Part shown: piece by piece, positions 1 to 25,764 of the stretch | Layout of the letters: every line of letters starts with the position of its first letter | Position numbering within the stretch: position 1 is the first letter of the stretch | DNA from: Conidiobolus incongruus B7586 | Taxonomy: Eukaryota | NCBI GenBank assembly: GCA_000697335.1 | Contig: JNEM01013894.1 | Span: 1 to 46,209, forward strand | Length of the DNA stretch: 46,209 nucleotides | Reading direction: 5' to 3' | Notes under the pieces: generated by a model | What the model was told of the DNA's origin: nothing | Seen by the model: the letters and a program-made list of their open reading frames with translations, nothing else | Database searches by the model: none | Made by a program: the position numbers and the translations under genes

Positions 1-524
1 TATTAACCAATAGTTAATAAAATATAATTAAATATAGCTAGTTATAATTAATTAATATAGGTAAATTATATATTTTAACTTAAATTCATTTAATTAAGAG
101 TTATTTAACATAGTAATAAATATATAAGTAATTTTAATTTTATAACTTATTTTTATAGGCTAGTATATATATATATATATAATATATTAATAAAAAGTAT
201 CAATAATACAATAAAAACAAAAATCACCTTATATTTAAGAAAACCTAGATAATTAATATTATTCAAAGATTATTAATACACTATTTAAAACAAAAGATAA
301 GTATTATATTTATTAGTTTGATTATAAATATATATATATATATATAATCCTTATAAATTTAATATTATATAAAAGATTATTATAATTAATAATGATAAAG
401 TTAAATAATATATTAGGCTATTTAAGATAAACATATATTATTAATTATAAAGAATAGTATTAGTTTAAAATATTTTATTAAAAACAACTATCTTAAAAAT
501 AAAAAAAAATTAAAAATAATATTA

Positions 525-3104: not shown

Positions 3105-3541
3105 AAAATTAATATTAAAAAATAGAAATTGTGCTAGCTCTTTTCTGAGATATATAGGTGATATTCAAAATATTTCATAAATTTATTTATATTGTTTTAT
3201 TTAGTTATAAATTTAAGATAGCTTAAATAAGATAGGTCTTTTATATAAGATCTTCTAGCATTTAGTTGATTAAACCAGTTTGCCATTCTATATTTTGAAA
3301 CCCTTTTGCCGTCAGTTGCTACTTGTGTATCTTTATGAATAATATAAAATGATTAATATAATATGATATTTTGATAACTGTTATTTGTTTAACTGATATA
3401 AAATTTGAAATTCTGTGGTTTTCAGTTATTTTATTTTTGGTTGTAAATCTCTTATAAAGGTATATTATATATATAGTGAATATGATGAATTATTAGGTAA
3501 CTTATTGTAATTCAAAATAATGCTAAAATTTAGATATTATA
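3105..3541 (-). mobile_element. Fragment of a second mariner-like family (5' part of transposase, HTH); near-identical to 12846-13282
   Basis: ~437 bp direct repeat at an offset of 9741 bp with only scattered substitutions. Minus strand of the 12846-13282 copy reads KQRTVIK...VSKYRITNWFNQLKAGRSYIKDL, resembling the mariner N-terminal/HTH W..RFK.GR.SLED.PRSGRP region; this copy differs by a few substitutions. Confidence 0.65.
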
Positions 3542-5149: not shown

Positions 5150-6410
5150 TAAGTTTATTAACAATAAATACAACCAATAATTTTAATATTTAATTTAGAA
5201 AAATGAATATATATTATAGAATCAATATTTTTTTATTATTAATGACTCTTTGCTTTTACCTTGGTAAGCTTTTAACACCTCAAAAACATTTTTTTTAAAC
5301 ATGACTAAAATTGAAAATTTTTAAAATTAATTAAATACTTTAAAGGAATTATTTTATTATAAATTGATTTTTTATTAAATAAATCAATTATAAATATATA
5401 TGTTATAATTTAGAAAATATATTTAAAATAATAATTTTAAATAATATTAATTAGAAACATTTTTAAACTTTAGTTTTTTATTTTATTTTTATTATTTAAA
5501 ATAATAAGTATTGTTAAATTATATTAAAAATAACAATTAAAAATAGTTTTCTTTAAAAAGCAATATAAAATTTATAGTTAATTAATTTTCCTTTAAAAAT
5601 AAAATAAAAATCATATATATTATTATAATTTATAATAATAACTAATATTTACTTATAAATAAAATATTTATTTATTTAAATTTGAAAAGGGGATTATTTA
5701 AACTTAACATTTTAATTTATATATTATTAAAGACTTATATAAAAGGATATATGATTTATTAACTCTAATAACTTATTATAAACACTCTAGCTTTTAGTTA
5801 TACCTTAATAAGTTTTATTTAACTACAGATAATTTAATTTTTTTGAGTTTCAATTAAATTATATAGTAATTATTTTTTATTTTTATTAAATAATTAAGTT
5901 TAAGCTTTAATATATATTATCCTTATATAATTAATATTAAAATACTTTAATAATTTTTTTCATTAAAATAAAAATTATTAATTTATATTTTTAGTTTATT
6001 CATAATTATAAGTGTAATAGTTAAAATTAGATTTTTAAATTTTGGTAAGTTTTAAATAATTTTTCTTCAAGCTTTAAAGTATTTTAACTAATAAAAAATA
6101 TTTTATTTGAATAAAATATTATTATTAAAAATTGCTTGTAAATTTTAAATGATTTTAAAAAGTTGTGGTTAAGTTATACTAATACTAAAATAAGACTCTT
6201 GATGATTATTATTTGATTTAAGCATAATTAAATTAAACAATTAATTTTTAAAAGTTAATTTTTTAATGAAGAAAATATTATATATATATATTTTAAAATT
6301 GTTTACTATCCTATTTATTCTATATACATTTTTTCTGAACCTAATAATATGTTTGAAAAATCAAAAATTAAAAAATTTCTCAATTCTTCAATTCCACGTT
6401 AATAAATAAA
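5150..6410 (-). mobile_element. Degenerate mariner transposon, copy 2 (more heavily mutated homologue of 525-1845)
   Basis: Colinear with copy 1 over ~1.2 kb (e.g. 631 ttttttattattaatgact vs ~5230; 1600-1710 vs 6170-6275). The YSPD motif reads TAT TTT CTA AAT here versus TAC TCT TTA GAT in copy 1. Ends approximate. Confidence 0.75.
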
Positions 6411-6456
6411 GTATTAAAGATAAATGTGACAAATTTTTTGTATAATTAATTAGGAT

Positions 6457-7890
6457 TTATAATTCATCAAAACCCTCATCATCTTGGACTTGAATGGGAA
6501 CAACTTGATAAAATTTAGTTAAAATTTTGACACTGTCTTGAAGATCTTTGATACCGATAACTTCACGGATAGCATTTTTGGAGAGTTGACCAGTTCCAAA
6601 GTCGACTGTTGAAACTCCGAGGAGAGAGGAAAGAGCTGATCCAAAGGTTGAACGTTCGCTAAGGTTATTACGATGAGCTTTACGTTGCAACGTGACGTTA
6701 GCAGACTTGGCAACTGTGTTAATGTGAGATGAGGTAGCAGAGTTGGTGGCATACTTTGTACCATAGTTGTAACCAATGAAGGGTCCACCATTCAAATGGA
6801 TCAAATTTTCGCTTTCGTAGAAAGAAACACCGGCAGGGTTATACGCGTGACCTTGTTCAGTGGAAACTAATAGAGAATCAGCAAGTGCTTGTTCTTGCAA
6901 AGAACTATCAGTGGATGAATTGGTGAAGGTAATACGTTTGAGAATTGAGGGTAAGAAAGTGGATTTGGCACCTTGGTAGGATGAACTACCAACTTTTTCG
7001 TGATCGAATTGGACAAAGACGCGAACTCGGCTATCTTTCTTCAAACTGTCGTCGCTGGTACTATCGACTAAAGCTCTGAGACCAGCATAAGTCATAGCGA
7101 GAGAATCAAGACGATGCCCAGTAATGACATCACCAGTTGCAAGACTGATAACTGCGTGATTGAGATCATAAAGAGCTAGATCTTGATCAACAATTTGCTG
7201 AGGTTTGATTTTATATTCTTCAGCAAGAAGTTGATGGACAAAAAGGGTATTGTTAATAGCGTTGGGCGCATTCAAAGTACCAGCAATAGGAACAAGTTCA
7301 GTTTCAGGATTAATATTGAAACCTTGAGAATCAATAGTTTTATCCAAGTGAATGGCTAACGTGGGAATACGGAATATGGGTCTGTTAATATTGACGAGCT
7401 TATTCACATAGTGGTTGGGTTTATCTTCGAGCACTAATCTACCAGCGAGTCCAAGATCACGATCAAACCATGAGTACCAGGCGCCATCGCCATAAGTGGC
7501 AAAGCCAGCTTGAAGATATTGCTTTGTGCTCTTGTTGTATTTAGGTTTGAGACGCAGAGATGGAGAATCATCGTGAGAAGCAATGATGCTAAAACCATTA
7601 CCAGGCCTGTATTCGCCACCAACAGAGAAGGCGACCAGAGAAGATTTACCACGAACAATGTAATATTTACCACTGGGCTTGACCTGGTCCTTCCAATTGC
7701 TCTTCTCACTCAATCTCTTATAACCAGCTTTCTCCAGACGTTCTTGACTACTGGCGACAGAGTGATAAACAGAAGGAGAAGAGTTTACATAATTAATGAA
7801 ATCAGAAATGACATCCGATTTTTCTGGATAAGAATTATTTTGAGCAATAATTGAGCTTACTATTAAGGATAATATTGAGCAATATTTCAT
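6457..7890 (-). CDS. M18-family aspartyl-aminopeptidase homologue, type A1: signal peptide, degenerate metal site, C-terminal FDEL
   Basis: Intronless 477-aa ORF. M18 motifs ASHDDSP, YSWFDRDLGLAGR, IPTLAIHL, RLDSL, FDHEKVGS, STEQGHA, LSKNAIRE. Hydrophobic N-terminus MKYCSILSLIVSSIIAQ; ends DDEGFDEL. Confidence 0.93.
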   Translation of the reverse strand: MKYCSILSLIVSSIIAQNNSYPEKSDVISDFINYVNSSPSVYHSVASSQERLEKAGYKRLSEKSNWKDQVKPSGKYYIVRGKSSLVAFSVGGEYRPGNGFSIIASHDDSPSLRLKPKYNKSTKQYLQAGFATYGDGAWYSWFDRDLGLAGRLVLEDKPNHYVNKLVNINRPIFRIPTLAIHLDKTIDSQGFNINPETELVPIAGTLNAPNAINNTLFVHQLLAEEYKIKPQQIVDQDLALYDLNHAVISLATGDVITGHRLDSLAMTYAGLRALVDSTSDDSLKKDSRVRVFVQFDHEKVGSSSYQGAKSTFLPSILKRITFTNSSTDSSLQEQALADSLLVSTEQGHAYNPAGVSFYESENLIHLNGGPFIGYNYGTKYATNSATSSHINTVAKSANVTLQRKAHRNNLSERSTFGSALSSLLGVSTVDFGTGQLSKNAIREVIGIKDLQDSVKILTKFYQVVPIQVQDDEGFDEL

Positions 7891-7999
7891 TATATTTAAA
7901 TTATTAAATAAGATATATAAATTTCAAGTTCTTGAGGATAAAGTTCTGAATTCTGCTAATTCACTCAAATATTGTAATTTCAATATAATTCGATCACAT

Positions 8000-8050
8000 T
8001 TAACTATTTATACCATCAATTTAACAACTTAAAGGAATCTTATAAAATCT
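8000..8050 (-). promoter_or_regulatory. Conserved promoter blocks of A1: AGATTTTATAAGATT and TATA box GGTATAAATAGTTAA
   Basis: Two exact 15-mers (8036-8050 and 8000-8014, minus strand) occur in the same order upstream of paralogue A2 (17973-17987, 18020-18034). Confidence 0.6.
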
Positions 8051-9677
8051 TTTGTAATCTTTATATTTTAAATCTTTAACTCGGCTTTTATATGAAATTA
8101 TGTCTTGAAAAAGTAAATTTAACCTTGAGAAAATAAAAAAATTATATATATCACAATTTAAGAAAAATAATATATATTTAATAATATTAAATTTCAATAT
8201 CAAAGCTTTTTACAAAATATTAATAATAACAATAACTTTAGATTCTATTAATTAAAATTATTTGAATAACATCAAAAATTCTTATGAATTCTAATTGATG
8301 GATGAATCGATATTCTAATTCAAATTCCTTCTCTTACTCATAATATTTGATCTATTCTAGTGAATATTCAAAAAAAAATTCAAATGATTTGATTTGATAT
8401 CATATTGATAATATGGTGTTATTCTACACAATTATATTGTTGTTATTATTTTGATTTTTATATGACAAAAACATTAAAAAGGCAAAGATAAAAGTATAAC
8501 AAATGCAAATTTTTATATTTAAATTTTAGAATTATAAAATTTAATTGATGGATTTTCAAATAAATTAGTATTTGATATCGAAGGATATATTAATTGTATC
8601 CATTGAATCTTATATATTGTTAAAATTAAATTTAAATTACAATAATAATTAATAGTCAACACTTTATTGGATATATATACATATTATCTATTTTAACCAA
8701 TTTTACCGCCATCAAAAAATACCTTATTTTTTATTATAACTAAAATTTGAATTATTTTAATTTAATTGAATAATTTGATCTATTTTATAATATTTCAACT
8801 TGAAGTATTGAAATTGCGGTTCAAGCCAATATGATCGAAATTATTCGATCAATATTATTAAATTCACAGAAAACATTTTAAGTTCAAGTATAAGATTGGT
8901 GAATATTAAAATCAGTACAACTACGATCAATATGATAAGATAAAGAAACTTATTTTTAGTATCATTCAAGCAACTAGTATATTCATTATATTAACGAAGT
9001 GACATGACCCAAATTGAGATCACTTTATTTAAACGGACTAGTTAAATGAATCCAAATGATATTATCCACTATGAATAGTATCATGTTTTTCAATGTTTTT
9101 TCCACTTTAATACATTATCATATGAGGAATTCATATGATTTCTTGCATTTCATATCCGAACTTGGATACTAAATCAAGTGACTTTGAGTCATATATTTCG
9201 ATCATTTGAATTATTAGTCATTTTATTAAATATTTGGATTAAATACCAAACAATTAAGGAGTTTAACTCAATGATATATTATATTAACCATTAATAAATA
9301 AATATAATAAATTATTAAATATATAGGTTAAACATTGAATAAGTAAATTTAAATATACAATAAATAAAATATAATTGAATTGAAAATTTTTGGATTAATA
9401 AATTCAAATTTATTTATGCTTTATTTTAAAAAAAAGCTTATTACTTTACATATCAACTGATCAGTGTATTGGCAGAAAAACTAGCTCATAAAGTTCTAAA
9501 ATGGATTGATAGTTGTGATTCTATTAATCAACAATTTTCAATATTCTACTTATTTAAAAGAGTCATATTGAAACACCATAATGAAATTGAAAGAAAATAA
9601 TTAGGACAAAACTTTGTTTACATGCTTTATATTGATCGATTTTCAATAGTTTAGTTAGAATCGAATAACTAACAAGA

Positions 9678-9945
9678 TGATATTGTGAGATTCCAAAGTG
9701 CTACCCTTGACACCATTTCTAACCTCGGGTTTCTGTTCTATAAGGAGCCTTTACCTTAATTGACCACTACTTGCGACATATGTTGTAATATCAATCAGCC
9801 TTAATGGTTAAATCCAATGACTTATTCCAAACACTGCTTTAGCCAATAAACCCTCAAATACACTTGTCATTATTAGGTAACAGCAACAGCCATTGCACCT
9901 CACATTACTACATCCATAATACCCATAGAGAAACTATAATATTAA
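9678..9945 (+). mobile_element. ~267 bp dispersed repeat, solo-LTR-like; inverted copy at 14422-14687
   Basis: Near-identical reverse complement at 14422-14687. Starts TGATATTGT, and the far end matches its reverse complement imperfectly (ATAATATTA here, ACAATATTA in copy 2, i.e. a decayed TG...CA). Internal AATAAA at ~9845. GC-richer than flanks. No target-site duplication found. Confidence 0.55.
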
Positions 9946-10155
9946 AAATATATATTAAAATACTAATTTTTAATCTTTATTATAAATATTATTAATAATA
10001 AATAAAAAAATTTTTAATTATATTAATAAATAATAAAATTAAAATACTAAAATATTAAGGAAATAATTAAAAAAAATTATTTTTATTATTATTATCATTT
10101 TATTAAAATTTAAAATTTAATTTAAATAGATTTGAATTAAAAAAATTAATTAAAA

Positions 10156-11671
10156 TTATTCATCAATATCTGAGTCTAATTGGCGACTGATTTGAGGGAA
10201 GTTGCGGAAATAGCTTGTGAAGAGGTCTCGAGCTTTGAGTACATCTAAAGTACCTGAAATTTCACGAGCGGAGTGCATAGAAAATTGTGTGTTACCAATA
10301 TCAACAGTGGGAATACCGCTTAAGGTACTAAGGATGGGACCAATGGTGGAACCGGGAGAACCATCGTTACGGTTGAGGAAGGTTTGAACGGTAATGTTAG
10401 CAGCTCTAGCAGCCAATTGAAGGACTAAGCCAGTATGAGCGTTGGTGGAGTATCTTTGGCCAAGGTGAATCTTCAAAGCAGGTCCTTCGTTGATGACAGG
10501 AGCGTTGTTGCTTTCAATCTTGGTGGGGTAGTTAGGATGTTGAGCGTGACCTTGGTCAGCAGAAACAAGGAAAGATTTGGCAATGCCTTGATCATAAACG
10601 GTAGGATCTTGTCCAGGTCTAGATTGTGAACTGACAACTCTTGAGATAATATTGGGGAGGAGAGTTGAACCAGCACCGTGGCGAGAACTACTTCCAACTT
10701 CTTCGTGATCGAAAATGGCAGCAACACGAACATTGGGATCGCTCTTGAGGCTATTATCAGTCAAACTGTGTAAAAGACCTTCAATGGCACCATATGACAT
10801 CATTAAGTTATCTTGACGACCTGAAAGAACGAATTCGTTACGGAAACCTCCTAATGTGGGCTTTTGTAAATCATAAGCACTTAATTCAAATCCAGAGATC
10901 TTATCAACTGGAACGCCAGCTTGGGCAGCAACTTGATTCCACAGCAATTTGCCAGCATCTACCTTGTTATTGGCAGCATTGCTCAAACCAACAAGAGGAA
11001 CTAAGTTAGTTTCCTTGTTGATCTTAATGAATGTAGTCTTAGAGTTAGCAGTATTCAATTCAACCGGTAAACCGGGAATATAGAGAACAGGCTTGTTGAT
11101 GTTGATCAATTTGGACTTGTATTTATTTCCATCTTGAACAATTACTTTACCAGCAAGGCCCAAGTTACGATCAATCCAAGTATGCCAGATACCACCACCA
11201 TAAGTTTCGACACCAGCAGTGCTGAAGCCATCCTTAGTCTTGGACCAGTTAGGCTTCAACTTAAGTTGAGGAGAATCAGTATGAGTACCAGCAATAGTAA
11301 AACCATTTCCAGCAACATATTCACCACCAACAGCAAAAGCAACTAAACTGGCGCCATTTCTAATGATATAATATTTCCCATTAGGTTGAATTTCCTTTTC
11401 CCAATCCCTAGTTTCACTAAGTCTCTTGAAGCCTTGAGCCTTCAATCTCCTGGAAGCTTCTTCAACTGCATGGAAGGGACTAGGAACTGATTGAGTCAAG
11501 AAATTGACATAATCTTGACCTACTTCGTAGAATTGGCCAGCGTCAATGTTCTATAATTAATAAATAAATAATTGGTGATAATAATAATATATGATTATTT
11601 TAAAGTACCTGTCCAGCAATAAAATGAGTTAAACTAAGTAAAATAGAAGTAAGTGAAGGATTGATCCACAT
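10156..11671 (-). CDS. M18-family aminopeptidase, type B1: signal peptide, intact dimetal site, His170->Glu; 2 exons (11671-11609, 11550-10156), 485 aa
   Basis: Exon 1 reads MWINPSLTSILLSLTHFIAGQ. A phase-0 GT..AG intron at 11608-11551 joins it to exon 2 (NIDAGQFYEVGQDYVNFLTQSVPSPFH...), in frame with the ORF track. Motifs GTHTDSP, RQDNL, FDHEEVGS, SADQGHA, GPALK, GSTIGP, SMHSARE; IPGLPVEL in place of IPxLAIHL. Confidence 0.93.
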
Positions 11672-11716
11672 AATTAAATACAAATTCTATTTTTGATCAA
11701 ATATTAAATTCAGATA

Positions 11717-11740
11717 TTGGGAAATTGATTAGCTTATATA
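11717..11740 (-). promoter_or_regulatory. Core promoter of B1: TATATAAGCT-N5-ATTTCCCAA
   Basis: The same two blocks with the same 5-nt spacing lie upstream of B2 (21156-21179, TATAAAAGCT-GTTGT-ATTTCCCAA). Confidence 0.55.
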
Positions 11741-12845
11741 TATACTCGAATCACATTCCCAAATTGCTCTCTTGATACAAAACTCATAATGAGGATTGCG
11801 AAAGTTTTCATTTGTTTGAATTGAATAATTTGATAATGTTTAAATTTTAAGTGTAATTTCTATAATAATAATAAGCCAATAATTACTGATTATTTCAATC
11901 TTATAGGATTAAAAAATATTAATAAAAATTTAGAAAAATTAATTTAAAATTACGATATATCATGTGATAACTCTTATTTAACTAAACATAAATTATTTAT
12001 TCCAGTTTTTGTATTTATTTTATATTAATATATAATTACCTTTTATATCAATTATATTTAAATAATTATTGAAAAGATATAAAAATTATCCAATTTTGAA
12101 AATTATTATATATTATTGTATGTTAAAGATTTTAACTTTTTAAATCAGGTCATAATATATGTAACAATTGTTGCAACAATTTTTTAACATTTGTTATTAA
12201 TATAATTATTGTGAGATATTAAACAAATTAATATTTTTACCAATCATCGTGGGATAATCATATAACATTAATTAAACCAAAAATATTCACTTCATTAATA
12301 ACATAATAAATTAATTAATTATTGTTATTTCAAAAGAGTTATAATGAAAATATAAATATAATAAATGATGGCTTTAAAGTTGATTTTATTTATAGATATA
12401 TTAAAAACTATTAACATATTTAATATTATTAATATCAAAATTTGTTTACCTGAAATAGAATATTCTTTTAAATTCCTATTTATTAACAGAGTTAATAATA
12501 ATCTAGATTCAGCAAAAAATTTTTGATCTTAATGGTTGTAGTTGAAGGTTTTTAAGGAATTATGATTTAAATTATAAGAAACAGTTTCTTCAATTGTTTC
12601 ATTTCTATTTTATAATATTATTAATATTTGCATCATTGTTTAGTGTAATATAATTATTGTCAATATATATTGAGCAGATATATCCAACTAATTTCTTTAA
12701 CGATTCAACAATCATCCCCAATATTGGACATCATTTGTTTTTTTCCAAATTTGACCATTTTCAAATGAGATACAATTTTTATATTTTAAAATTCAAAAAT
12801 TTTAAATATAATTTAAAAAATAATATACAATTTCATAATTAAAAG

Positions 12846-13282
12846 AAAATTAATAATAAAAAATAGAAATTATGCTAGCTCTTTTCTGAGATATATAGGT
12901 GATATTCAAAATATTTCATAAATTTATTTATATTGTTTTATTTAGTTATGAATTTAAGATAGCTTAAATAAGATAGGTCTTTTATATAAGATCTTCCAGC
13001 TTTTAGTTGATTAAACCAGTTTGTAATTCTATATTTTGAAACCCTTTTGCCGTCAGTTGCTACTTGTATATCTTTATGAATAATATAAAATGATTAATAT
13101 AATATGATATTTTGATAACTGTTCTTTGTTTAACTGATGTAAAATTTGAAATTCTGTGGTTTTCAGTTATTTTATTTTTGGTTGTGAATCTCTTATAAAG
13201 GTATATTATATATATAGTGAATATGATGAATTATTAGGTTACTTACTGTAATTCAAAATAATGCTAAAATTTAGATATTATA
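12846..13282 (-). mobile_element. Second copy of the mariner-like 5' fragment (see 3105-3541)
   Basis: Near-identical direct repeat of 3105-3541; shares the same decayed codons. Confidence 0.65.
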
Positions 13283-14421
13283 AAATGATTTATTAAACAA
13301 TAATTGTTTAAATTATAGGAAATTACTATTTGAACCAGCTGATATTACAAGTTTATTAACAGTTTTCAAATTTCACCTATTAATAAAATATCTATATTTA
13401 AAAACTACTTTAGTTCTGTTAATTATAATATACTTTCATGGGTGAATATTAATTAATAATAAATAATATAGCTATTATCAAATTAATTAGATAATGTGAG
13501 ATAATGCCCCATTTTTTCAAAATTTAGAATATTATTTTGAAAAGTTGGATATTACAATTCGCTAATTCAAAGGTGAAAAATATTAACAGTTTTCAACCGC
13601 TATAAAAAATTCAATTTAATGTTATAAATTAATTATCTGATAATTAGTGATTAAAGTGTCTGAAATTACTAAAAAATTGTTTAGTTTCAATAATATTTAC
13701 AATGAAGTATTCAAATTTGAACTTGTTAATTATTTTTATATTGTTAATATATAGTAGTATTTCAAAGAGTTAAGATTTAACACCATTAAATATTTAACCT
13801 ATAAATGTTATTTTATAAATGGGATGGTTTGAATATTAGTAATTGTTAATGAAGCGTGTTTGATATTAACAAGATTGCTTAGGATTGAACTTGTTATAAC
13901 TTGTATACAACAGATATATATATATATTCTTTTGTCCGATAAAAAGAAAATATCTTTCAAAATGTTTCATATATTAAAAATATATTCTATACATTATTAA
14001 ATTTAAATTTATATGATGTTTTTGTATATGATTTAATCTTTAGCTATACATTGAATAATTATTAAAATTCCTTTTTTGTACAATTAAAAATATTAACAGA
14101 CTAAATTATGTACCGATTCTTATTGCAATGCTATTAGAACTATTTCACTTCAAAATCCTTAATAAAAAAGGTTTTCTAAATGCTGAATTCTACAATAATA
14201 TCATTATTTTTGATTTTTTTTTTCAATTTCCTCTCCCTCCCCCCTCTCATCTTGAAAATGCAAAATTTAATTTGAAATATGTTACAAAAAAATTCGAATT
14301 CAGATTTAAATTGATATTAATTAATGAGCATCAAAAAGTGTATGAACAAGATATAACTCCTCAGTATAATAAATCCATAATATAATATTTATACAATACG
14401 AACACATGTAATCATAGCGAA

Positions 14422-14687
14422 TTAATATTGTAGTTTCTCTATGGGTATTATGGATGTAGTAATGTGAGGTGCAATGGCTATTGCTGTTACCTAATAATGA
14501 CAAGTGTATTTGAGGGTTTATTGGCTAAAGCAGTGTTTGGAATAAGTCATTGGATTTAACCATTAAGGCTGATTGATATTACAACATATCGCAAGTAGTG
14601 GTCAATTAAGGTAAAGGCTCCTTATAGAATAGAAACTCGGGGCTAGAAATGGTGTCAAGGGTAGCACTTTGGGATCTCACAATATCA
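14422..14687 (-). mobile_element. Inverted second copy of the solo-LTR-like repeat (see 9678-9945)
   Basis: Reverse complement of 9678-9945 with few differences; termini TAATATTGT...ACAATATCA. Confidence 0.55.
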
Positions 14688-15301
14688 AAAGGTTATTGTG
14701 AAAGTTAGATTGAAATAATTTTTTATAATTAGAAATATTAAAATATTGAAATAGTATTTTGTTCTCTATTTGAATTGTTTAAATTGATTCATTTGAAAAT
14801 TAATAATAATAAAATACTAATATACTTATAATCTATATTATCTTGATAAATAGTATTTTGTATATTAAATAGGTTTGTACCTAATTTTTCTTGGTTAAAA
14901 TTTTGTATTTATTACTCAAAATTATCAATATATTGTGAAAAGATTAGTATTAATTTAAGTATAAATGTAATTATTAATTAAAAACTCACTTTTATACTAT
15001 TATATTGGATAAGTATATTTAAAAGTTTAAAATTTTTCATATATAATACTTATTTTAAAAAATAACAATTTATGAATAATTTAGAAATTTTAATTCAAAT
15101 TCTTAAACATCAAACTATAGAAAAATCTTAAGAAATAAAATATATTAATGAAAAAATGATTAGATATATGAAAAAAAGATAGAATATATAGTATAAATAA
15201 AAATCTACATCAATAATTAGCGATGTATTATATTTCAAGCCGAAAAAATATTTACAGGTGGATTATTATGAAAATAATATTGAAATTTATTTAATCAGCA
15301 A

Positions 15302-15373
15302 CTTTTATTACCATTATGGTGAGTATACCCGCTTGCCATATTAGCGTCATGTGTTCAATTCCCAATTAGAGTT
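15302..15373 (+). pseudogene. Decayed tRNA-Asp copy (tRNA pseudogene)
   Basis: TGGTGAGTATACCCGC (15317-15332) and GTTCAATTCCCA match the tRNA-Asp at 23146-23217 exactly, with ungapped spacing. Acceptor and anticodon stems no longer pair; the loop reads TTGCCAT. Confidence 0.7.
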
Positions 15374-17112
15374 ATATTAAGGTAGTTTTGTTGAAAATTT
15401 AGTGATTTATTTTTTAATGGACTATCAGAGTATATATAATTCAATATACTATAAAGTATTATACTTTAACTTGCTGTATATATTATCTTTGATTGATAGC
15501 ACTCTAAATATATTTTTCAAGATTATTTAGCTACAATTTTAAAAGATTATAAAAATTGAAATGATTATTTATATTAAAGTGATTTATGGTGCTTTTATTA
15601 ATATATTTATCATACTATAGGAAATAAATATAACAACGATTGTCCAATTATGATTAGTATCATATTATCTATATAGAATATTTTATCAACTGATTAATCC
15701 ATATTGCAATGATTCTATTTTCTTGATTGATTATACACCTTATTTATTGATCTATCCTATATTTATATCTTAATCCTAAGTCTTTATTTTACAGCTACTA
15801 ATGATCTATTTCCAATAGTTAATCATATTAAACTATATATAATATAAACATATAGGTTTTATATTAGATTTAATACAAATTAATCAATATCATTTCATCA
15901 ATTTTATATTTAAATTTCTTAAAATTTTGATTTATTATTTTACAGAAATATATTAAAAAATATAGATATCTTTAATTATATATATATATATATATAGAAT
16001 ATCATACTTAACATAAATATTGATTGTCATATATTGAAATGAAAAAAATTTTATATATTAAAAATTGGTATTTGATTAATAAAATTTAATATATATCGGA
16101 TATAATTCAATAATGATCATACTATATACTATGAGAAATGATATTTTGAATAAGATACTTAATTCCTGATCGAAAATTGCAATTTATTCAATATAATTAA
16201 CATAAGAAAATGAAACAATAATTTTTCAAAATAATAGCTAATGACCATATATTTAAAATTCTTAAACATTTCGATTTTATTTTTTAACTCATCATCCCAT
16301 TAATTATACAGTTTTTAATATACCTTATGTTTTATACATTAATATTGATTGTATCATATTGTTAATTTTCAAAAGCATTATTATTATTATTATTGTACTC
16401 ACAAATGTTATAGAACTATATTAAATTGATCTATCATCAAATGAATATTCAGCTATTTCAATAATAGCATTCTAATTAATAATTGTTTGAAAATGATACA
16501 TTTAATTTTAGGAAGCAACTGTTTGAAATATATTATCAAATTCAAATTAATTCATAATGTTTTTTTACAATTTTTACTTATAACTAGGGTATGAAATTAA
16601 TATAAATTAAAAATAACTATTTTTATCAAATAACAAACGAATTAGTTAATACGAATTCAATTGTCAGATTTCAATCATCTAATTTTTTTGATACTACAAA
16701 AATATTCACGAATATCTTTATTTAGTTACTTAATTAGGAAAAGAAATTAAAGTATTACTGTATTAAATCTGTAATTATTAGATTAAACGTTATCTTTAGA
16801 AAATAATTGGATTTGTAAACTTCGAAAAATGTATTAATAAAAAGAACTTTAAAAAGTGAATTGATATATCCTTAAAATACACAAAAATGGCCTAATTGAA
16901 CTAATTTGTCAATTGAGTGACCATGTGACAGCTACTTGATGGTTTTCAGTCATCTGATGTATATTAGAGTTTATATTCTTTTTCAGTTGAGTTGTCAAAA
17001 TCAAAATAATATTTTTCTCTATGAAATAATTTCAAATAAATAAAAATATATATTTCATCTAATTTTGTAGATGAATATTAATTCTGAATCAAACTTATCA
17101 TTACTTTAAATC

Positions 17113-17183
<71 letters not shown>
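17113..17183. repeat. (TTA)n microsatellite, about 23 units
   Basis: Uninterrupted ttattatta... run. Confidence 0.95.
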
Positions 17184-17972
17184 TATAAATACCATTTTAA
17201 AATTGGTAACTAAAGATATAGGGAATTAAAATTTACCAATTTGAATTAGAGATTATTAATATTTTTTGGTTTTATAAAATGTAATAATATTCATACCTAA
17301 ATAGAATACTAATTGATAAATATAGCGTAATAATAGAATAATATTAATAATATTATTAAAATAATAAATGAGCTATATGAGAATCTTTGATATATCAATG
17401 TATTCTACTTGTTGAATATGAGCAATGTATTACAAAATAATTCAAATTCAGAATTCGATAAAATTACTGGAAAAATTAGTGTATCATTTTTCAAAAATCT
17501 TTACTTAGTTAATGTAGTACAATTAACTAAGTATTAAAGATAGCGTGTTTGAAGGAAATTAATGCGCGAGATGCTTGGGACTCTCTTAATATTGGATCTC
17601 AATGACACCATTGTCACAAATACTTAGAAATATTCAATTAAAATAAGATAATCATTAGCGATGTGCATATTTTCATAATATTCTCATTGTGTACTATTAG
17701 ATTTATTAAAATGTGATTTTTTCTAAATGCTTGATTTGATTCAATTTCAATGAAAATTTATAGCAATATTGAAATAAAATGTCAAATAATAAAGTGTAGT
17801 GTGATAAAGGATAATATACTGGCTATATCATTAGTTTCTGGAGAATTCGTTTTATCATTGTAGTAATTCAATTGACAAATCAAGTAAAGAATATTATCCA
17901 ATTGTAGAATTAATTAAAATACAAGAAAAAAATACAAAACTGATAATTTGCAGTAAGTCACACATTTAATTG

Positions 17973-18034
17973 AGATTTTATAAGATTTGAAAGGATTTAA
18001 ACTTAGAAACACAAATTAAGGTATAAATAGTTAA
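17973..18034 (+). promoter_or_regulatory. Conserved promoter blocks of A2: AGATTTTATAAGATT and TATA box GGTATAAATAGTTAA
   Basis: Exact matches to the two 15-mers upstream of A1. Confidence 0.6.
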
Positions 18035-18167
18035 TTAGAACAAATTTGATTGGAGATTATTGCAACAAGTTGAATTGGTTGTGTTTCTAATTAATTTCCG
18101 TTACGAAATCCTAAAAACTAAGATTAGAACTTTATTAATTTTATAGCTTACTCATATTTGATTCATC

Positions 18168-19610
18168 ATGGTCAAGCTCTTTTGTTCTGTATTATCCTTG
18201 ATCGTTGGCTCGATCATTGCTCAAGATACTTCATATCCCACTCATGCATCGGATGTTGTCTCTGACTTCATCAACTATGTCAACTCTTCTCCCACAGTCT
18301 ATCACTCCGTCGCCAGCAGTAAAGGACGCTTGGAAAAGGCTGGTTACAAGAGATTGAGTGAAAAAGAAAATTGGAAGGATGTTTTGAGGCCTAATGGTAA
18401 ATACTATGTTATCCGTGGTAAATCAACCCTCGTCGCCTTCTCTGTTGGTGGTCAATATAAACCCGGTAATGGATTTAGTATCATTGCTTCACACGATGAC
18501 TCTCCTTCCCTTCGTCTTAAACCCAAATACAATAAGGGCAATAAGCAATACCTCCAGGCTGGCTTCGCTACTTACGGTGATGGTGCCTGGTACTCTTGGT
18601 TTGATCGTGATCTTGGTCTCGCTGGTAGATTGATCATTGAAGATAAGCCTGGTCACTTTGTTGATACACTCGTCAATATCAATAGACCCATTTTCCGTAT
18701 CCCCACTCTAGCCATTCATTTAGACCGTACCATTGATTCTGAAGGTTTCACCATTAACCCTGAAACTGAACTTGTCCCTATTGCTGGTACTTTGAATGCT
18801 CCCAATGCTATTAATAATACCCTCTTTGTTCATCATCTTCTCGCTGAAGAGCTCAAAATCAAGCCCCATCAAATTGCTGATCAGGATTTAGCTTTATACG
18901 ATTTGAATCCCACAACTGTTGGTCTCGTCACTGGTGATGTGATCACTGGGCACCGTCTTGATGCTCTTACCATGACCTATTCCGGTCTCAGAGCTTTGCT
19001 TGATAGCTCTAATGGTGAGAACTTGAGCAGAGATAGCCGCGTTCGTGTTTTTGTTCAATTCGATCACGAAAAGGTCGGAAGTTCTTCCTTCCAAGGTGCC
19101 AAATCCAGCTTCTTGCCCTCTATCCTCAAGCGCATCACATTCGCTTCTCCTTCAACTGATGAATCTATTCAAGAACAAGCTCTTGCTGATTCCCTCTTAG
19201 TCTCTACAGAACAAGGCCATGCCTACAATCCCTCCGGCGCCTCCCTCTACGAGAGTGAACACTTAGTTCACTTGAATTCTGGACCCTTCATCGCTTACAA
19301 CCACGGCACCAAATATGCTACCAATTCTGCTACTTCCTCTCACTTGACTGCTGTTGCTAAGGCTGCCAATGTCACTTTACAACGCAAGATTCACCGCAAC
19401 GACATCAGTGAACGCACCACATTTGGTGCTGCTCTTGCTTCTCTTCTTGGTGTCTCCACAGTCGATTTCGGTACTGGTCAACTCTCCAAGAATTCCATTC
19501 GTGAAGTTATCGGGGTCCACGACTTACAAGACAGTGTCAAAGTGCTTACCAAATTTTTGGAAGTTTCTCCCATCCAACTCCAAGACGAAGATGGCTTTGA
19601 TGAATTATAA
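18168..19610 (+). CDS. M18-family aspartyl-aminopeptidase homologue, type A2: signal peptide, degenerate metal site, C-terminal FDEL
   Basis: Intronless 480-aa ORF colinear with A1. Motifs ASHDDSP, IPTLAIHL, RLDAL, FDHEKVGS, STEQGHA, LSKNSIRE. N-terminus MVKLFCSVLSLIVGSIIAQ; ends DEDGFDEL. Confidence 0.93.
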   Translation: MVKLFCSVLSLIVGSIIAQDTSYPTHASDVVSDFINYVNSSPTVYHSVASSKGRLEKAGYKRLSEKENWKDVLRPNGKYYVIRGKSTLVAFSVGGQYKPGNGFSIIASHDDSPSLRLKPKYNKGNKQYLQAGFATYGDGAWYSWFDRDLGLAGRLIIEDKPGHFVDTLVNINRPIFRIPTLAIHLDRTIDSEGFTINPETELVPIAGTLNAPNAINNTLFVHHLLAEELKIKPHQIADQDLALYDLNPTTVGLVTGDVITGHRLDALTMTYSGLRALLDSSNGENLSRDSRVRVFVQFDHEKVGSSSFQGAKSSFLPSILKRITFASPSTDESIQEQALADSLLVSTEQGHAYNPSGASLYESEHLVHLNSGPFIAYNHGTKYATNSATSSHLTAVAKAANVTLQRKIHRNDISERTTFGAALASLLGVSTVDFGTGQLSKNSIREVIGVHDLQDSVKVLTKFLEVSPIQLQDEDGFDEL

Positions 19611-21155
19611 TTCAATTCATCAAGTTTAACATACAAAAATATTTATTTTATTGTCACATTCATTAATAGTGAAGGACATATATTTTATTTATTTAAATCG
19701 TAATAATACCAATCATAGTCATAATATTAATAAAAAATATAAACACTTATATTATATAACAATGGTCTACTGATATATTTAAAACATTTATCTGATTTAT
19801 TAAATAAAACTAAGCCAAACTCAAGCGAAATTGAATAATAACAATATTTCAAACCGAAATTCAATGACAGGTCATTTATTGTTTAAATTTAGGTAATAAA
19901 TTTGAGTAAATTATGGTATAATGTTATTAAAAATTAAACCAAATCAGCCTATGATTAATTTTTTTTGTTTTCTAAGAAATATTGAAATAGTTTTTTATAC
20001 ATTATTATAAAATATTCCTAAATGCATTAATGGACTATTTTACATAATATGATAAAATTTTACTATGACTTTATTTTTAATTATTTTCAATATTAAAAAT
20101 TTAAGTAATGAGTAAAAGTAGATTTTGAAACAAAACGTGAAAAATTCTTTTTATAATTGATAAATAGTAAATTATAGTTCTAATTCTAAATTTTGAAAAG
20201 ATATTTAATTTTTCTCTCTCTCTAAATACTAGAATATATAATCGAGTTATATTATATCTATATATTTTAATTCTTAATTATTGATTCAACAAATTTGATG
20301 TCTAAATAAATAGCTGAAAAAGATCAGGAAAAAATAATTAAATAATACCAAAACAGATATTTTTCAGAAATTGATATAGTTTTAATCATTCGATATATTA
20401 CAATAATAGACTTTGCTATAGTATCAAGATGTTTAGTGCAATGCATAAAAATATCTTTATTTTGAAATTAGCAACTGAATAATAAACTTAATGAAAGCAT
20501 ATATGGTAGAATTTATGAATCTATAACCAAATTATTATTAATATAGCTAAATTTGGTCAATAAATATTAATATATTTTAACTTGCGTTTTGTTCTTTTTG
20601 CAATTTATCAATTTATATAATTGTAGATATATTTTGATCATAGAATAATAACTTGAAATTGATTAATGGTAAATTCGATCAATGATCATCTATCAACTCA
20701 ATTCAATTTTTTGATATTCAAAATTATTGCAAATATTATGAATACTATTACAAATATTCCTGAATGTTAAATGAAACTGGGTTTATGCCCAATTTTTGAA
20801 AATGAAAAATATATCATTTATATTAATTATTAGAATATATTAAATAAGGAAATATATAACTAATGATTAATATATGCACTATTAATATGGTCAAGGGTAC
20901 TTAAAAATATATTTTAAAAATTTTGTAAGAATTAGGTGATTCTTAAGAATTATTGCAAATTGAACTAAAACTGAAATAAAAATGTTAATCTTGCAAGATT
21001 GAGCTAGTTGGACTGGGATTTTAAGCTGAATAGTGGATTTGATTACAAGACAGTTTTCACATTCAGGTCGTTCGAAAGATTGCTAATGCCTGCAGAATTT
21101 TTCATTTTGAAATGATGCCATCTTATGGAATAATACCTATTGGGCAAACATTTGT

Positions 21156-21179
21156 TATAAAAGCTGTTGTATTTCCCAA
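21156..21179 (+). promoter_or_regulatory. Core promoter of B2: TATAAAAGCT-N5-ATTTCCCAA
   Basis: Shared with B1; lies 40-65 nt upstream of the ATG. Confidence 0.55.
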
Positions 21180-21219
21180 ACTAAGTTCATTAATTAATAG
21201 ATTCTTAGTATTTTGAATA

Positions 21220-22727
21220 ATGTGGATTCAAGCTTCCGTCATCCCATTATTGGTCGGTTTGACTCAGTTTGTTGCTGGTCAGGTAATTCATTCTAATTAT
21301 TCTAATTACTCAGCAATTATATTTACATTATATTTATTTAGAATGTTAATCCTGAGCAGTATTATCAAGTAGGACAAGACTATGTTAACTTTTTAGAGCA
21401 AGCTATCCCTAGTCCTTTCCATGCTGTCCAAGAAGCTGCTAAGAGGTTATCTGCCCAAGGCTTCAAGAGATTGAGTGAACAAAAGAGCTGGGAAAAACAA
21501 ATTCAACCTAATGGAAAATATTACATCATCAGAGATGGAGCCAGTTTGGTTGCCTTTGCCGTTGGTGGTGACTATGTTCCTGGAAATGGCTTTACTGTCA
21601 TTGGGTCCCATACTGATTCCCCTCAATTAAAATTAAAACCTAATTGGTCCAAGGACAAGCCTGGTTATGGACTCGTTGGTTTTGAAACATATGGTGGGGG
21701 TCTCCAACACACCTGGATTGATCGAAACTTAGGTCTCGCTGGTAAAGTCGTTGTCCAAGAAGGTGACAGATATAAGACTAAGTTGATTAATATCAATAAG
21801 CCCGTTCTCTACATTCCTTCCTTACCATTTGAATTGAATACTGCCAATTCAAAGCCAACACTCCTTAAGCTCAACAAAGAAAATAATTTAATTCCTTTCG
21901 CTGGATTGAGTAACTCTCGAAATAACAAAGCTGACCCTGGCAAGCTATTATGGAGTGAAGTAGCTACCCAAGCCGGTGTTACTCCTGACAAGATCTCAGG
22001 TTATGAATTGAGTGCTTATGATTTGCAAAAGCCGACATTGGGAGGATTTCGTAATGAATTTGTCCTTTCAGGTCGTCAAGATGATTTAATGATGACCTAT
22101 TCCGCTGTCGAAGGTTTATTACAAAGTTTAGATGATGATAGTTTGAAGGCTGATCCTAATGTCCGAGTTGCTGCTCTCTTTGATCACGAAGAAGTTGGCA
22201 GTAGCTCCCGTCACGGTGCCGGCTCTACTCTCCTCCCTAATGTCATCTCCAGAGTTGTCAAGTCACAGCTCAAATCCCAAGATCCAACTGCCTACGATCG
22301 AGGCATTGCCAAATCATTCCTCATCTCTGCCGATCAAGGACATGCTGATCACCCCAACTATCCTAGCAGACTTGAAAGCAACAACTCACCCATCATGAAC
22401 GAAGGTCCGACTCAATTTGTCAGCCAATCTCAAAGATTTGCCACCAATGTCCAAACTACTTTGGTTCTTCAACGCGCTGCTAAAGCTGCTAATGTTACTG
22501 TTCAAACTTTCATGCTTCGTAATGATATTGCTTCAGGATCAACTATCGGTCCCTTGATCAGTACCCTCACAGGTATCTCCACAGTTGATATGGGAACAGC
22601 GCAATTCTCCATGCACTCAGCCCGTGAAATGGCTGGTACTTTGGATGTCTACAAGTCCAAAGCTCTGTTCACAAGCTACTATCGCAACTACCCCAAAATT
22701 ATCAAAGAATTGGAATTTGACGAATAA
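21220..22727 (+). CDS. M18-family aminopeptidase, type B2: signal peptide, intact dimetal site, His170->Glu, Lys374->Phe; 2 exons (21220-21282, 21342-22727), 482 aa
   Basis: Exon 1 reads MWIQASVIPLLVGLTQFVAGQ. A phase-0 intron at 21283-21341 is in the same position as in B1. Exon 2 starts NVNPEQYYQVGQDYVNFLEQAIPSPFH. Motifs GSHTDSP, RQDDL, FDHEEVGS, SADQGHA, GSTIGP, SMHSARE; IPSLPFEL; ends LEFDE. Confidence 0.93.
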
Positions 22728-23145
22728 TTTGAATTTAAAGTTAAAATAATCATAATATAATTTACCATAATACTCACATATCAAAAAAAATTATTTATTT
22801 ATTTACATTATCTAGTTTATCAATAAATACTGTAATTGATACTTAAAATTTTCAATTTTACTTAGTTCAATGCAGATAAACCAGCAAATTAATTTTAGAT
22901 ATAAATAGATCACTTTGAAATATTTTTAAATCAAATCTCAAAATATATTATTAAATATGAAATAAAAAATATTATATAATATTAAAAAATTAAAAATCAT
23001 TATATTACATAAAAAATTCTTCATTTAAATATGCAATTGAAACTAAAATTATCGAAATTGATTAATTGAAGGAAAATAAATGAATTAATTTAATGATTTA
23101 AATTAAGAGGATATAATAATTGTAAAAAGTAAGGAATTGAACAAA

Positions 23146-23919: not shown

Positions 23920-25764
23920 ATGATTTTACGTAATATTAGAGGGAGTATAATTTCCTCTCGATTTAAGAAATTTAAATTAACGACCTTTTCACCATTATAC
24001 ATTTCTTCATCTACAGTTGAAAAGGAACAAAATTTGGACGATCGACCTAAAACTAAAATCGAAGTGAATAGACAAGATTTAATCAAACAATTAATTAATT
24101 TATATCGGAAGAACAACGTTTCTAAGGAAGATGAGCTTGTTAATCGGAATGTTAATCAGAATTATTCCAATTGGGATTACTTAACGGCTTGTTTTGACAA
24201 GGTTAACTTCGTTGAACTTGACCAACAGCTACATAAACTCAAGGAGGAGAATCCTTCGGAAAGGAGAGAAATATTACTCAAATTCTGTACACTACTTGAA
24301 AATCCCAGTGTTTTTGAAGAAAAGAAATTTCACTCAATCACTATCGTTATAGATCATATTGTCAATTTGATAATAGAATCTTCTAATTCTAATTTTTTGA
24401 GCACTGTGAGCGAACAAATCACGGATATGACCAAATTCTTTAACCTGATATACAGTTGGATTCAACTCGACTCGGATTATAATCTAAAAATCAAATTGAT
24501 CAATACTTTTTTGTCGCATTTTGAAGCTAGTAATAATCTTCAAGGATTACATTTAATTCACAATTATTTACTCGAACTATCTCTTCCCATTCAGAATATG
24601 GAAACTTTTGATACCCAGGCGAAAAAGCTCAAGCCAGTTTGGTATCGTCTAATGTCTTGCCTTGCAGGCATAGATAACGAACTGTCATTGAAAATATTGA
24701 ACCAGCTATGGTACTCTTTCGATCCCAAAGACTCCACATTCCAAAATCCTTTGGATTATCTCATTCGACATTGTTTACAAAGTGCAAGTAAAGAGCTTAA
24801 AATGTTTCCTCAAGATCGACTACCAAAACTTCAGCTCATGTTTTCCATATATCCGATGGTTCAGGAATATTTAAAGGTCTATCCCTACACTCTCAATAGG
24901 TACAATGTAGATATTCAAAGAATTTTTGTAGGTATGGCGCACTATCACGGCTATTCCAATGATGTGGAATCGTTATTAAATTTCATGGATACCGAAGATG
25001 TTGTTCCAAAAAATCACTATGTTGCATCAACTGTTATTTATCAAATCTTTCGAATGGGCTACTGTGATTCGGGAGCTCAGATATTTAATAAGTTTATGAA
25101 AGATCACCTAGAATCCGATCCTCATGTTATGTATAATGCACCATACACTACACTTCTAAATGGATTAAGCCATAACAAACAGTGGGACGCAATGTCGCAA
25201 TATTTCCAACTGAGACACAAGTTGCCTATCAAGATCAATCCTAAATTATACAATGATATATTATTAACCTTCAGAAATAATGTCCCACCAGTGAGACTAA
25301 TACAGACCATTTATTACGGTATGGTAAATATAGATCAAATCAGACCAACTACAAAATCTCTCGATGCGATCGCTAGGCTGTTACCAAATTATCAGATTGA
25401 CTTCACGCAACAAAGTTCCGTACTACCTTTAAGTCATCGTCTCAATAACTTTTATGTTCAATTTAACCATAATCCTAATCTCGACCTTCGATTCTTTACC
25501 ACAATGATCCACGAAATTGTGACCCACACCCCCAAAGAAGAACTCGAATCCATCACTGAAATTCTTTCAAATTTATACAACGACTTAATCAAGAGAGAGC
25601 TCAAGCCCACTGGACCTTTTCTGACCACCATGCTAGTAGTCTACCTGAAACTTGGGCGACCTGAAGGCGTCCAAGAGATCCTACTCTATCTCAAAGACAA
25701 TTCACATTTAATTGATCACAAATTGAATCATTTAATCACTTCGTTAAGAATTCAAAAGTATTAA
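23920..25764 (+). CDS. Probable mitochondrial pentatricopeptide-repeat (PPR)-like protein, 614 aa
   Basis: Intronless ORF with an Arg/Ser/Lys-rich, acid-free N-terminus (presequence-like). Degenerate helical repeats such as PYTTLLNGLSHNKQWDAMSQYFQ, LYNDILLTF, IRPTTKSLDAI and LKPTGPFLTTMLVVYLKLGRPEGVQEIL. Confidence 0.65.
   Translation: MILRNIRGSIISSRFKKFKLTTFSPLYISSSTVEKEQNLDDRPKTKIEVNRQDLIKQLINLYRKNNVSKEDELVNRNVNQNYSNWDYLTACFDKVNFVELDQQLHKLKEENPSERREILLKFCTLLENPSVFEEKKFHSITIVIDHIVNLIIESSNSNFLSTVSEQITDMTKFFNLIYSWIQLDSDYNLKIKLINTFLSHFEASNNLQGLHLIHNYLLELSLPIQNMETFDTQAKKLKPVWYRLMSCLAGIDNELSLKILNQLWYSFDPKDSTFQNPLDYLIRHCLQSASKELKMFPQDRLPKLQLMFSIYPMVQEYLKVYPYTLNRYNVDIQRIFVGMAHYHGYSNDVESLLNFMDTEDVVPKNHYVASTVIYQIFRMGYCDSGAQIFNKFMKDHLESDPHVMYNAPYTTLLNGLSHNKQWDAMSQYFQLRHKLPIKINPKLYNDILLTFRNNVPPVRLIQTIYYGMVNIDQIRPTTKSLDAIARLLPNYQIDFTQQSSVLPLSHRLNNFYVQFNHNPNLDLRFFTTMIHEIVTHTPKEELESITEILSNLYNDLIKRELKPTGPFLTTMLVVYLKLGRPEGVQEILLYLKDNSHLIDHKLNHLITSLRIQKY

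What the first reader, a model, noticed from the sequence alone, without database searches (positions are those of the whole stretch)
6457..22727. Split-active-site M18 aminopeptidase: two clustered paralogue types with exactly complementary catalytic lesions
Established: M18 enzymes (human DNPEP, yeast Ape4) are homododecamers. Two Zn ions are bound by H94, D264, E302, D346 and H440, and each active site is completed by His170 (IPxLAIHL loop) reaching in from the neighbouring subunit. Seen: both type A genes keep this His (IPTLAIHL; codons 7348-7350, 18717-18719) but have E302->K (FDHEKVG; 6994-6996, 19071-19073), H440->N with M439->K (LSKNAIRE/LSKNSIRE; 6574-6576, 19491-19493) and D346->E. 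Both type B genes keep every metal ligand and the general base (HTDSP, RQD, DHEEVG, SADQGH, SMHSARE) but replace His170 with Glu (IPGLPVEL 11059-11061; IPSLPFEL 21831-21833). Each lesion is shared by both copies of its type, in intact ORFs. Inference: neither type should be a competent homo-oligomer, but an A:B dimer would rebuild one full site (B's metals plus A's His). That would be an obligate heteromeric enzyme encoded as a gene cluster. I know of no described M18 system like this.
Basis: partly seen in the sequence, partly recalled or inferred. Interest (0 to 1): 0.93.

Follow-up and report, generated by a model that had tools for sequence, protein, structure and literature searches.

The report
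Split-active-site M18 aminopeptidase gene cluster
A Conidiobolus-like fungus carries four clustered aminopeptidase genes of two types with complementary losses of catalytic residues, so the two types likely have to pair up to make one working enzyme, probably inside the secretory pathway, which my searches found described for no member of this enzyme family.

Summary
All four genes are M18 aminopeptidases, most likely from a relative of Conidiobolus coronatus.

Type A keeps the trans-acting His170 but has lost one zinc site and gained four basic residues in its pocket. Type B keeps the dizinc site but has Glu at 170. All 274 other top hits, and 120 of 122 fully covered diverse representatives, keep all seven catalytic residues. 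The same lesions occur in C. coronatus and in a metagenome source. Both paralogue pairs are under purifying selection (dN/dS 0.085 and 0.11). A and B group as sisters, and their losses at conserved sites fall in complementary domains (Fisher p = 0.004, weakening to 0.04-0.22 once the defining sites are removed).

New here: both B genes have an unreported 5' exon, all four proteins have likely signal peptides, and every A ends in FDEL, an ER-retrieval-like motif. B1 keeps the acidic-substrate pocket and B2 does not.

Best reading: an obligate A:B heteromer, likely in the ER or secretory lumen (0.68). There is no biochemistry, expression data or complex model, and it is one lineage only.

The parts
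6457..7890 (-). A1: type A M18 gene, 477 aa, single exon. Likely signal peptide; His170 kept (7348-7350); E302K (6994-6996), D346E (6856-6858), L400K (6679-6681), G414R (6652-6654), M439K (6577-6579), H440N (6574-6576)
   Evidence: 82% identical to C. coronatus KXN75024
6460..6471 (-). C-terminal FDEL of A1 after an acidic tail; candidate ER-retrieval signal
   Evidence: F at -4 works as well as K in a mammalian XDEL scan (PMC2140024)
10156..11550 (-). B1 exon 2: full dizinc site (H94 11281-11283, D264 10810-10812, E301/E302 10699-10704, D346 10555-10557, H440 10273-10275); His170 replaced by Glu (11059-11061); acidic P1 pocket kept (K374, Y381, H349)
   Evidence: 89% identical to KXN75023
11551..11608 (-). 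B1 intron, 58 nt, GT-AG (inferred from frame and homology; no RNA data)
   Evidence: matching N-terminus in KXN75023
11609..11671 (-). B1 exon 1, 21 codons, likely signal peptide
18168..19610 (+). A2: type A M18 gene, 480 aa, single exon. Likely signal peptide; His170 kept (18717-18719); E302K (19071-19073), D346E, L400K, G414R, M439K, H440N (19491-19493)
19596..19607 (+). C-terminal FDEL of A2
21220..21282 (+). B2 exon 1, 21 codons, likely signal peptide
21283..21341 (+). B2 intron, 59 nt, GT-AG (inferred)
21342..22727 (+). B2 exon 2: full dizinc site; His170 replaced by Glu (21831-21833); P1 pocket remodelled (K374F 22416-22418, Y381F 22437-22439); N265D

Best explanation
Types A and B are likely the two halves of one obligate heteromeric aminopeptidase: in a predicted A:B dimer, B would supply the two zinc ions, the general base and the substrate pocket, and A would reach across with its His170 loop to complete B's site. 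The reciprocal site (A's pocket plus B's loop) would be dead. There B's Glu faces an A pocket with four new basic residues (K302, K/R400, R414, K439), which may act as a charge lock that favours A:B over A:A or B:B (inferred). Six such dimers would give a dodecamer with six active sites (inferred from the DNPEP architecture). All four proteins likely enter the secretory pathway, and A's FDEL tail may hold the complex in the ER. B1 would cut acidic N-terminal residues and B2 neutral ones. Shown: residues, gene structure, conservation, selection, fold. Inferred: co-assembly, activity, location, specificity.
For: (1) His170 acts in trans and H170F is inactive (PMC3472314; S1 Table of PMC5638241). 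(2) The lesions are fixed in 5 of 5 A and 4 of 4 B proteins, against 0 of 274 other hits. (3) Of 87 columns at least 97% invariant in the family, 12 are lost only in A (11 in the proteolytic domain) and 8 only in B (6 in the dimerisation domain); Fisher p = 0.004, and 0.006 and 0.03 at 90% and 80% thresholds. (4) A's His loop is 74-81% identical to canonical enzymes, like canonical controls (75-87%); B's is 39%. B's proteolytic domain is the more canonical, 44-46% against 38-39%. (5) dN/dS is 0.085 for A1/A2 and 0.11 for B1/B2 at dS 1.3-1.6. (6) A and B group together (SH-aLRT 99) and share 17-21 rare residues, against a maximum of 11 for any of 274 controls. (7) Both types occur in all three sources: the window; C. 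coronatus KXN75022-75024 (consecutive accessions); and JGI proteins that share a 24,505-bp contig length. (8) N-terminal hydrophobicity is 2.06-2.69 against a 95th percentile of 1.82 in 268 others. There is no Cys beyond the N-terminal peptide in 8 of 8 checked, while all 274 others have at least 2. A ends in FDEL in 5 of 5, and 0 of 274 others end in EL.
Against: No activity, interaction, expression or localisation data exist here. The co-occurrence is in one lineage, so it is not an independent test. The domain-level signal weakens to p = 0.04 when the five defining sites are dropped and to p = 0.22 when two loop neighbours are also dropped. A keeps H94, D264, E301, a carboxylate at 346, H349 and Y381, so one metal site may survive. 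The two sources differ on H440: 'abolished' in PMC3472314, 'decrease kcat' in the S1 Table. One intact-site M18 from Teratosphaeria destructans has Phe at 170 (P0343), so loss of this His also occurs elsewhere; I did not look for a partner there. The A+B grouping joins two long branches and may be an artefact (warning). Signal peptides rest on a hydropathy heuristic. FDEL was validated in mammalian cells only, and it could be a chance extension of the acidic C-terminus (B2 ends FDE). The C. coronatus model KXN75022 is an A2/B2 chimera with one internal Cys, and its status is unresolved.
Confidence: 0.68

Rival explanations
1. B works alone as a homo-oligomer whose chemistry no longer needs the trans His (Glu or a cis residue stands in). 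A is a separate pseudoenzyme, for example an ER peptide-binding protein or chaperone.
For: B keeps all five metal ligands and E301. The related M28 enzyme AAP is a monomer with only a catalytic domain (PMC4012986). Plant M18 enzymes have chaperone activity (PMC5638241). One other M18 has lost His170 with an intact metal site.
Against: It does not explain why a dead A keeps its His loop as canonical as active enzymes do. His170 is present in 274 of 274 and 146 of 147 other proteins, and H170F is inactive in DNPEP. B has also lost loop-adjacent invariant residues.
Confidence: 0.15
2. A is itself a new mono-zinc enzyme (H94, D264, E346, base E301, trans His170, Lys302 in place of the second metal) acting as A:A, and B is either its partner or independent.
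For: A keeps H94, D96, D264, E301, H349, Y381, T416 and His170 in 5 of 5 proteins. That a Glu at the 346 position and mono-metal activity occur in M20 enzymes such as DapE is recalled; I saw only a reference title on mono-metalated DapE.
Against: G414R, L400K/R, M439K, N265S/A and the YGGG-to-YGDG change hit residues listed as catalytic pocket, substrate pocket or metal-orienting. A's proteolytic domain is the most diverged from the family.
Confidence: 0.07
3. A and B do co-assemble, but A is mainly a scaffold or ER-retention subunit. Its His is kept for structural reasons, and the heteromer is not strictly needed for catalysis.
For: Only A carries FDEL. Optional heterododecamers are known for M42 TET2/TET3 (PMC4220976; PMC12516491).
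Against: B lacks a residue shown to be essential in trans. The TET2/TET3 models were built from homodimers of two active enzymes.
Confidence: 0.1

Closest known systems
M18 aspartyl aminopeptidases (human DNPEP 4DYO, fission yeast Ape4 7DDE, P. aeruginosa 4NJR)
   Same: Pfam PF02127, fold (TM 0.90 for the A1 model), two-domain layout, loop-swapped site with trans His170 (PMC3472314).
   Different: Described members are homo-oligomers with all catalytic residues in each chain, found in cytosol, vacuole or chloroplast. Here no chain has the full set, and all have likely signal peptides.
Pyrococcus TET2-TET3 heterododecamer (M42)
   Same: Same clan and tetrahedral architecture; paralogues with different specificity in one particle.
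   Different: Both subunits also form homododecamers, and the published models use homodimer building blocks. Here the heterodimer itself would be required.
Mitochondrial processing peptidase alpha/beta (M16B)
   Same: A zinc-binding subunit plus a homologous metal-free subunit that is essential and contributes a loop to the active centre (PMC11266112).
   Different: Different fold and family. The alpha loop binds substrate, whereas A would donate a catalytic His. Here both subunits carry reciprocal lesions.
M20 dimers with a trans His (aminoacylase-1 His206, DapE His194)
   Same: The dimerisation domain contributes a His; the Acy1 His206Ala mutant is nearly inactive (PMC4012986).
   Different: These are natural homodimers. 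Complementation of engineered mutants (Acy1), and engineered complementary loss-of-function heteromers of yeast Fcy1, are recalled only. This locus would be a natural case.

Membership tests
M18 peptidase family (homology) | PF02127 domain above the curated cut-off | tested here: met
   4 of 4 genes, 412-442 bits against a cut-off of 24
M18 peptidase family (homology) | Two-domain M18 fold | tested here: met
   A1 model pLDDT 90.5, TM 0.90-0.91 to 4dyo and 7dde; B not modelled, sequence match E 2e-110 to 7dde_A
Canonical self-sufficient M18 enzyme | H.D.E.D.H dizinc ligands in each chain | tested here: not met
   Met by B, not by A (E302K, D346E, H440N)
Canonical self-sufficient M18 enzyme | General base E301 | tested here: met
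   Glu in all A and B proteins
Canonical self-sufficient M18 enzyme | Trans His170 on the beta8-beta9 loop in each chain | tested here: not met
   Met by A, Glu in B
Canonical self-sufficient M18 enzyme | Homododecamer of six dimers | not testable with these tools
Aspartyl aminopeptidase subgroup | Lys374 in the P1 pocket (criterion of PMC3472314) | tested here: inconclusive
   Lys in the B1 type only; Phe in B2, Gly or Ala in A
TET2-TET3-type optional heterododecamer | Each paralogue complete and active as a homo-oligomer | tested here: not met
   By sequence neither type has all seven catalytic residues; activity itself untested
MPP-like enzyme/pseudoenzyme heteromer (works-like comparison) | Metal-free homologue binds the metal subunit and is required for activity | not testable with these tools
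   The sequence pattern fits; binding and rescue need the bench
KDEL-type ER-lumenal protein | Signal peptide plus C-terminal retrieval tetrapeptide | tested here: inconclusive
   Hydropathy heuristic and FDEL in 5 of 5 A proteins; F at -4 works in HeLa cells; no signal-peptide predictor, and fungal receptor specificity unknown

The most novel reading that the evidence does not exclude
A modular, ER-lumenal M18 peptide-trimming particle built like a small proteasome. Non-catalytic A subunits donate the catalytic His and the ER-retrieval tag, and interchangeable B1 (acidic) and B2 (neutral) subunits set the specificity. It arose from one homomeric enzyme by duplication and reciprocal loss of catalytic residues, with a Glu-to-Lys/Arg charge lock in the dead site.
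Probability: 0.33. Interest if true: 0.88.

Novelty: new variant of a known kind. Interest (0 to 1): 0.74.

Why it matters
If true, this is a natural case of a homomeric enzyme with a shared active site turning into an obligate heteromer through complementary loss of catalytic residues. That route to molecular complexity is much discussed, but to my recall it has mostly been shown with engineered mutants. Here it can be tested with two proteins and one loss-of-function mutant. It would also place a self-compartmentalising M18 peptidase in the ER or secretory lumen, a location not reported in the papers I read. All three C. coronatus gene models are annotated as ordinary M18 or aspartyl aminopeptidases, so the annotation hides the feature. 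It is, however, confined to one small fungal lineage in the data reached.

Tried and rejected
No whole genome is held for this window, so a canonical cytosolic M18 gene and the tails of other ER proteins in this organism could not be checked.

The complex predictor was not available; there is no A:B model and no verdict.

Sequencing runs: no RNA holder listed. Laying contigs on 18100-22800 gave cover in X1 and none in X5-X7, which is no proof of absence.

The metagenome locus scan returned 6 loci from 123 stretches, all only 34-39% identical, so no A-type locus. The profile search of 1.84 billion representatives found one A-type cluster (1042 bits, next 366) and listed no B-type protein among its best 150. 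The ESM Atlas gave only generic M18 clusters.

A 7-mer shared upstream of all four genes is not significant: 153 of 500 random non-coding quadruples share one. Rejected as evidence of co-regulation.

Pseudogene decay: rejected by open frames, dN/dS near 0.1 and the same lesions in three sources. Sequencing error: rejected likewise.

Duplication of the A-B pair as one inverted block: rejected by gene order and orientation (B1 then A1 leftwards, A2 then B2 rightwards).

The careful 42-row tree did not finish; quick trees were used. Grouping A+B with the Neoconidiobolus enzyme is not rejected (p-AU 0.139).

Earlier-findings look-ups returned nothing. Supplement searches for M18 counts in two fungal genome papers found nothing.
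Full report
What is there. The window is low-GC eukaryotic DNA. Four genes between 6457 and 22727 match Pfam Peptidase_M18 at 412-442 bits. Their closest named relatives are from Conidiobolus coronatus NRRL 28638 (82% to A1, 89% to B1), so the window most likely comes from a related Conidiobolus. A1 (6457-7890, minus) and A2 (18168-19610, plus) are single-exon. The annotated C. coronatus protein has the same N-terminus. No RNA data confirm the splice.

Checking the observation. All eight codons read as stated, and the alignments to solved M18 chains fix the equivalences. An AF2 model of mature A1 has pLDDT 90.5 and matches human DNPEP at TM 0.90. For the background rate I aligned all 280 proteins fetched by then. 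The 274 that are not from this cluster keep H94, H170, D264, E301, E302, D346 and H440 without exception. These are top-scoring hits, so they lean canonical. I therefore also scored the 147 new proteins from a profile search of representatives at 50% clustering: 146 of 147 have His170, and of the 122 that cover all seven sites 120 are canonical. The two exceptions each have one substitution.

The premise. In the DNPEP structure paper (PMC3472314; parts 1-3 of 4 read), H94, D264, E302, D346 and H440 bind the two zinc ions, E301 is the proposed base, and His170 comes from the other subunit of the dimer. H170F abolishes activity. Lys374 marks acidic specificity. The S1 Table of PMC5638241 (supplement read, one cell cut) lists the same roles plus pocket residues. 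It gives H440 mutation as lowering kcat where the first paper says abolished.

Type A. All five A proteins keep His170, H94, D264, E301, H349 and Y381. All have E302K, D346E, M439K, H440N, G414R, L400K/R, N265S/A and K374G/A. Four listed pocket or metal positions have therefore become basic.

Type B. All four B proteins have Glu at 170 and keep every metal ligand and E301. B1 keeps K374 and Y381. B2 has K374F, Y381F and N265D, and the B2-like half of KXN75022 has the same three changes. By the published Lys374 criterion, B1 would be an acidic and B2 a non-acidic aminopeptidase.

The complementarity goes beyond single codons. Of 87 columns at least 97% invariant in the 274, 54 are kept by both types, 12 are lost only by A, 8 only by B, 4 by both, and 9 are mixed. 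Eleven of the 12 A losses lie in the proteolytic domain, and 6 of the 8 B losses in the dimerisation domain that carries the loop (Fisher p = 0.004; 0.006 and 0.03 at looser thresholds). The test is partly circular. Without the five sites that define the types p = 0.04, and without two loop neighbours as well p = 0.22. The loop itself is 74-81% identical to canonical enzymes in A (canonical controls 75-87%) and 39% in B. The proteolytic domain is 38-39% identical in A and 44-46% in B. A looks like a loop donor with a decayed pocket, and B like a pocket with a decayed loop.

Selection and history. dN/dS is 0.085 for A1/A2 and 0.11 for B1/B2, at dS 1.3 and 1.6 (near saturation), so neither type is a decaying pseudogene. 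A and B are each monophyletic on long stems and group together (SH-aLRT 99 in a 25-row quick tree; long-branch warning in the 42-row tree). B proteins share 17-21 family-rare residues with A, against a median of 2 and a maximum of 11 for single canonical proteins. The simplest history is one ancestor, duplication into A and B with reciprocal loss, then a second duplication of each.

Distribution. Linkage in the last two is inferred from those labels; I could not fetch the DNA. No A- or B-type protein appeared outside this lineage in three homologue searches (best 120 rows each, about 8,000 candidates scored) or in the representatives search. Neoconidiobolus thromboides and Basidiobolus gave only canonical proteins in those lists, which does not show absence. 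KXN75022 is an A2/B2 chimera, probably an annotation artefact.

All four proteins start with a hydrophobic stretch followed by small residues and Gln (maximum 9-residue hydropathy 2.06-2.69; 95th percentile of 268 others 1.82). This is a heuristic, not a predictor. Eight of eight full-length A and B proteins checked have no Cys beyond that stretch, while all 274 others have at least two; the chimera has one. All five A proteins end in an acidic tail plus FDEL, and none of the 274 others ends in EL. In a mammalian XDEL scan, F, W and Y at -4 were as effective as K (PMC2140024, passages). B has no such tail. A complex would then explain how B could stay in the ER, as I recall for glucosidase II. 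Fungal receptor specificity may differ, in which case the enzyme would be secreted or vacuolar.

Mechanism. The best reading is an obligate A:B dimer with one live site (B's metals, base and pocket plus A's His) and one dead site, where B's Glu meets A's new basic residues and may lock the pairing. Six dimers would give a dodecamer with six active sites. I put this at 0.68. The rivals are B active alone with A a separate pseudoenzyme (0.15), a heteromer in which A is only a scaffold (0.10), and A as a mono-zinc enzyme (0.07). Co-assembly, activity and location are all inferred.

Comparison with what is known. By homology these are M18 proteins, but neither type passes the test for a self-sufficient M18 enzyme. 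TET2-TET3 (M42) form heterododecamers from two complete enzymes (PMC4220976 and PMC12516491, passages). MPP alpha/beta is the closest working analogy (PMC11266112, passages); that review's main text does not mention M18. M20 enzymes use a trans His too (PMC4012986, passages).

Literature coverage. Ten full-text searches showed no paper on a heteromeric or split-site M18, or on these Conidiobolus genes; most hits I saw only as listings. PMC5638241 (passages) has no occurrence of 'hetero' in its main text. PMC11105155, PMC8778642, PMC9026835 and PMC13631411 (passages; supplement term searches for the first two) held nothing on M18. The library lacks most subscription journals, including the primary mutagenesis paper of Wilk et al. 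2002, which I know only through the two citing sources.

Verdict. It is a new variant of a known kind. Interest 0.74.

Noticed in passing
P0003 (KXN75022, C. coronatus): The annotated 517-aa protein is a chimera: residues 1-205 are 97% identical to the JGI A2 protein, the rest 80% identical to B2, with the loop segment present twice and a short tandem duplication later. It is probably a gene model across an assembly gap. If it is a real fusion, it would carry all seven catalytic residues in one chain.
   Followed up: partly
window 18100-22800, run X1: The run holds a second set of contigs about 88-91% identical over B2 at similar depth, with variant contigs over A2 too. Of the 40 listed differences 32 are synonymous and none lies in a diagnostic codon, but 443 rows were not shown. 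Second haplotype, further paralogues or a second strain.
   Followed up: partly
P0343 (KAH9823622, Teratosphaeria destructans): An M18 with intact metal ligands but Phe at His170 and an altered loop: a possible independent B-like protein. No partner was looked for.
   Followed up: partly
P0395: An unnamed M18 with Asn at H440 and the other covered sites canonical.
   Followed up: no
window 3094-3592 and 12835-13337: Direct repeat of about 500 bp, 93% identical, in AT-rich non-coding DNA on either side of A1-B1.
   Followed up: no
window 9678-9945 and 14422-14687: Inverted pair of 268 bp, 97% identical, GC 36% against about 20% around it; possibly a small mobile element.
   Followed up: no
window 519-1868 and 5125-6423: About 1.3-kb segments 74% alike, very AT-rich (GC 12-16%), so partly compositional.
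   Followed up: no
window 23920-44286: Unrelated eukaryotic neighbours: a 614-aa ORF with no Pfam match (23920-25764), a Myb-like protein with an acidic tandem repeat (28691-29617), a DnaJ protein (30031-30708), a TBC-domain GAP (38096-38488) and Vac14 (42214-44286).
   Followed up: no
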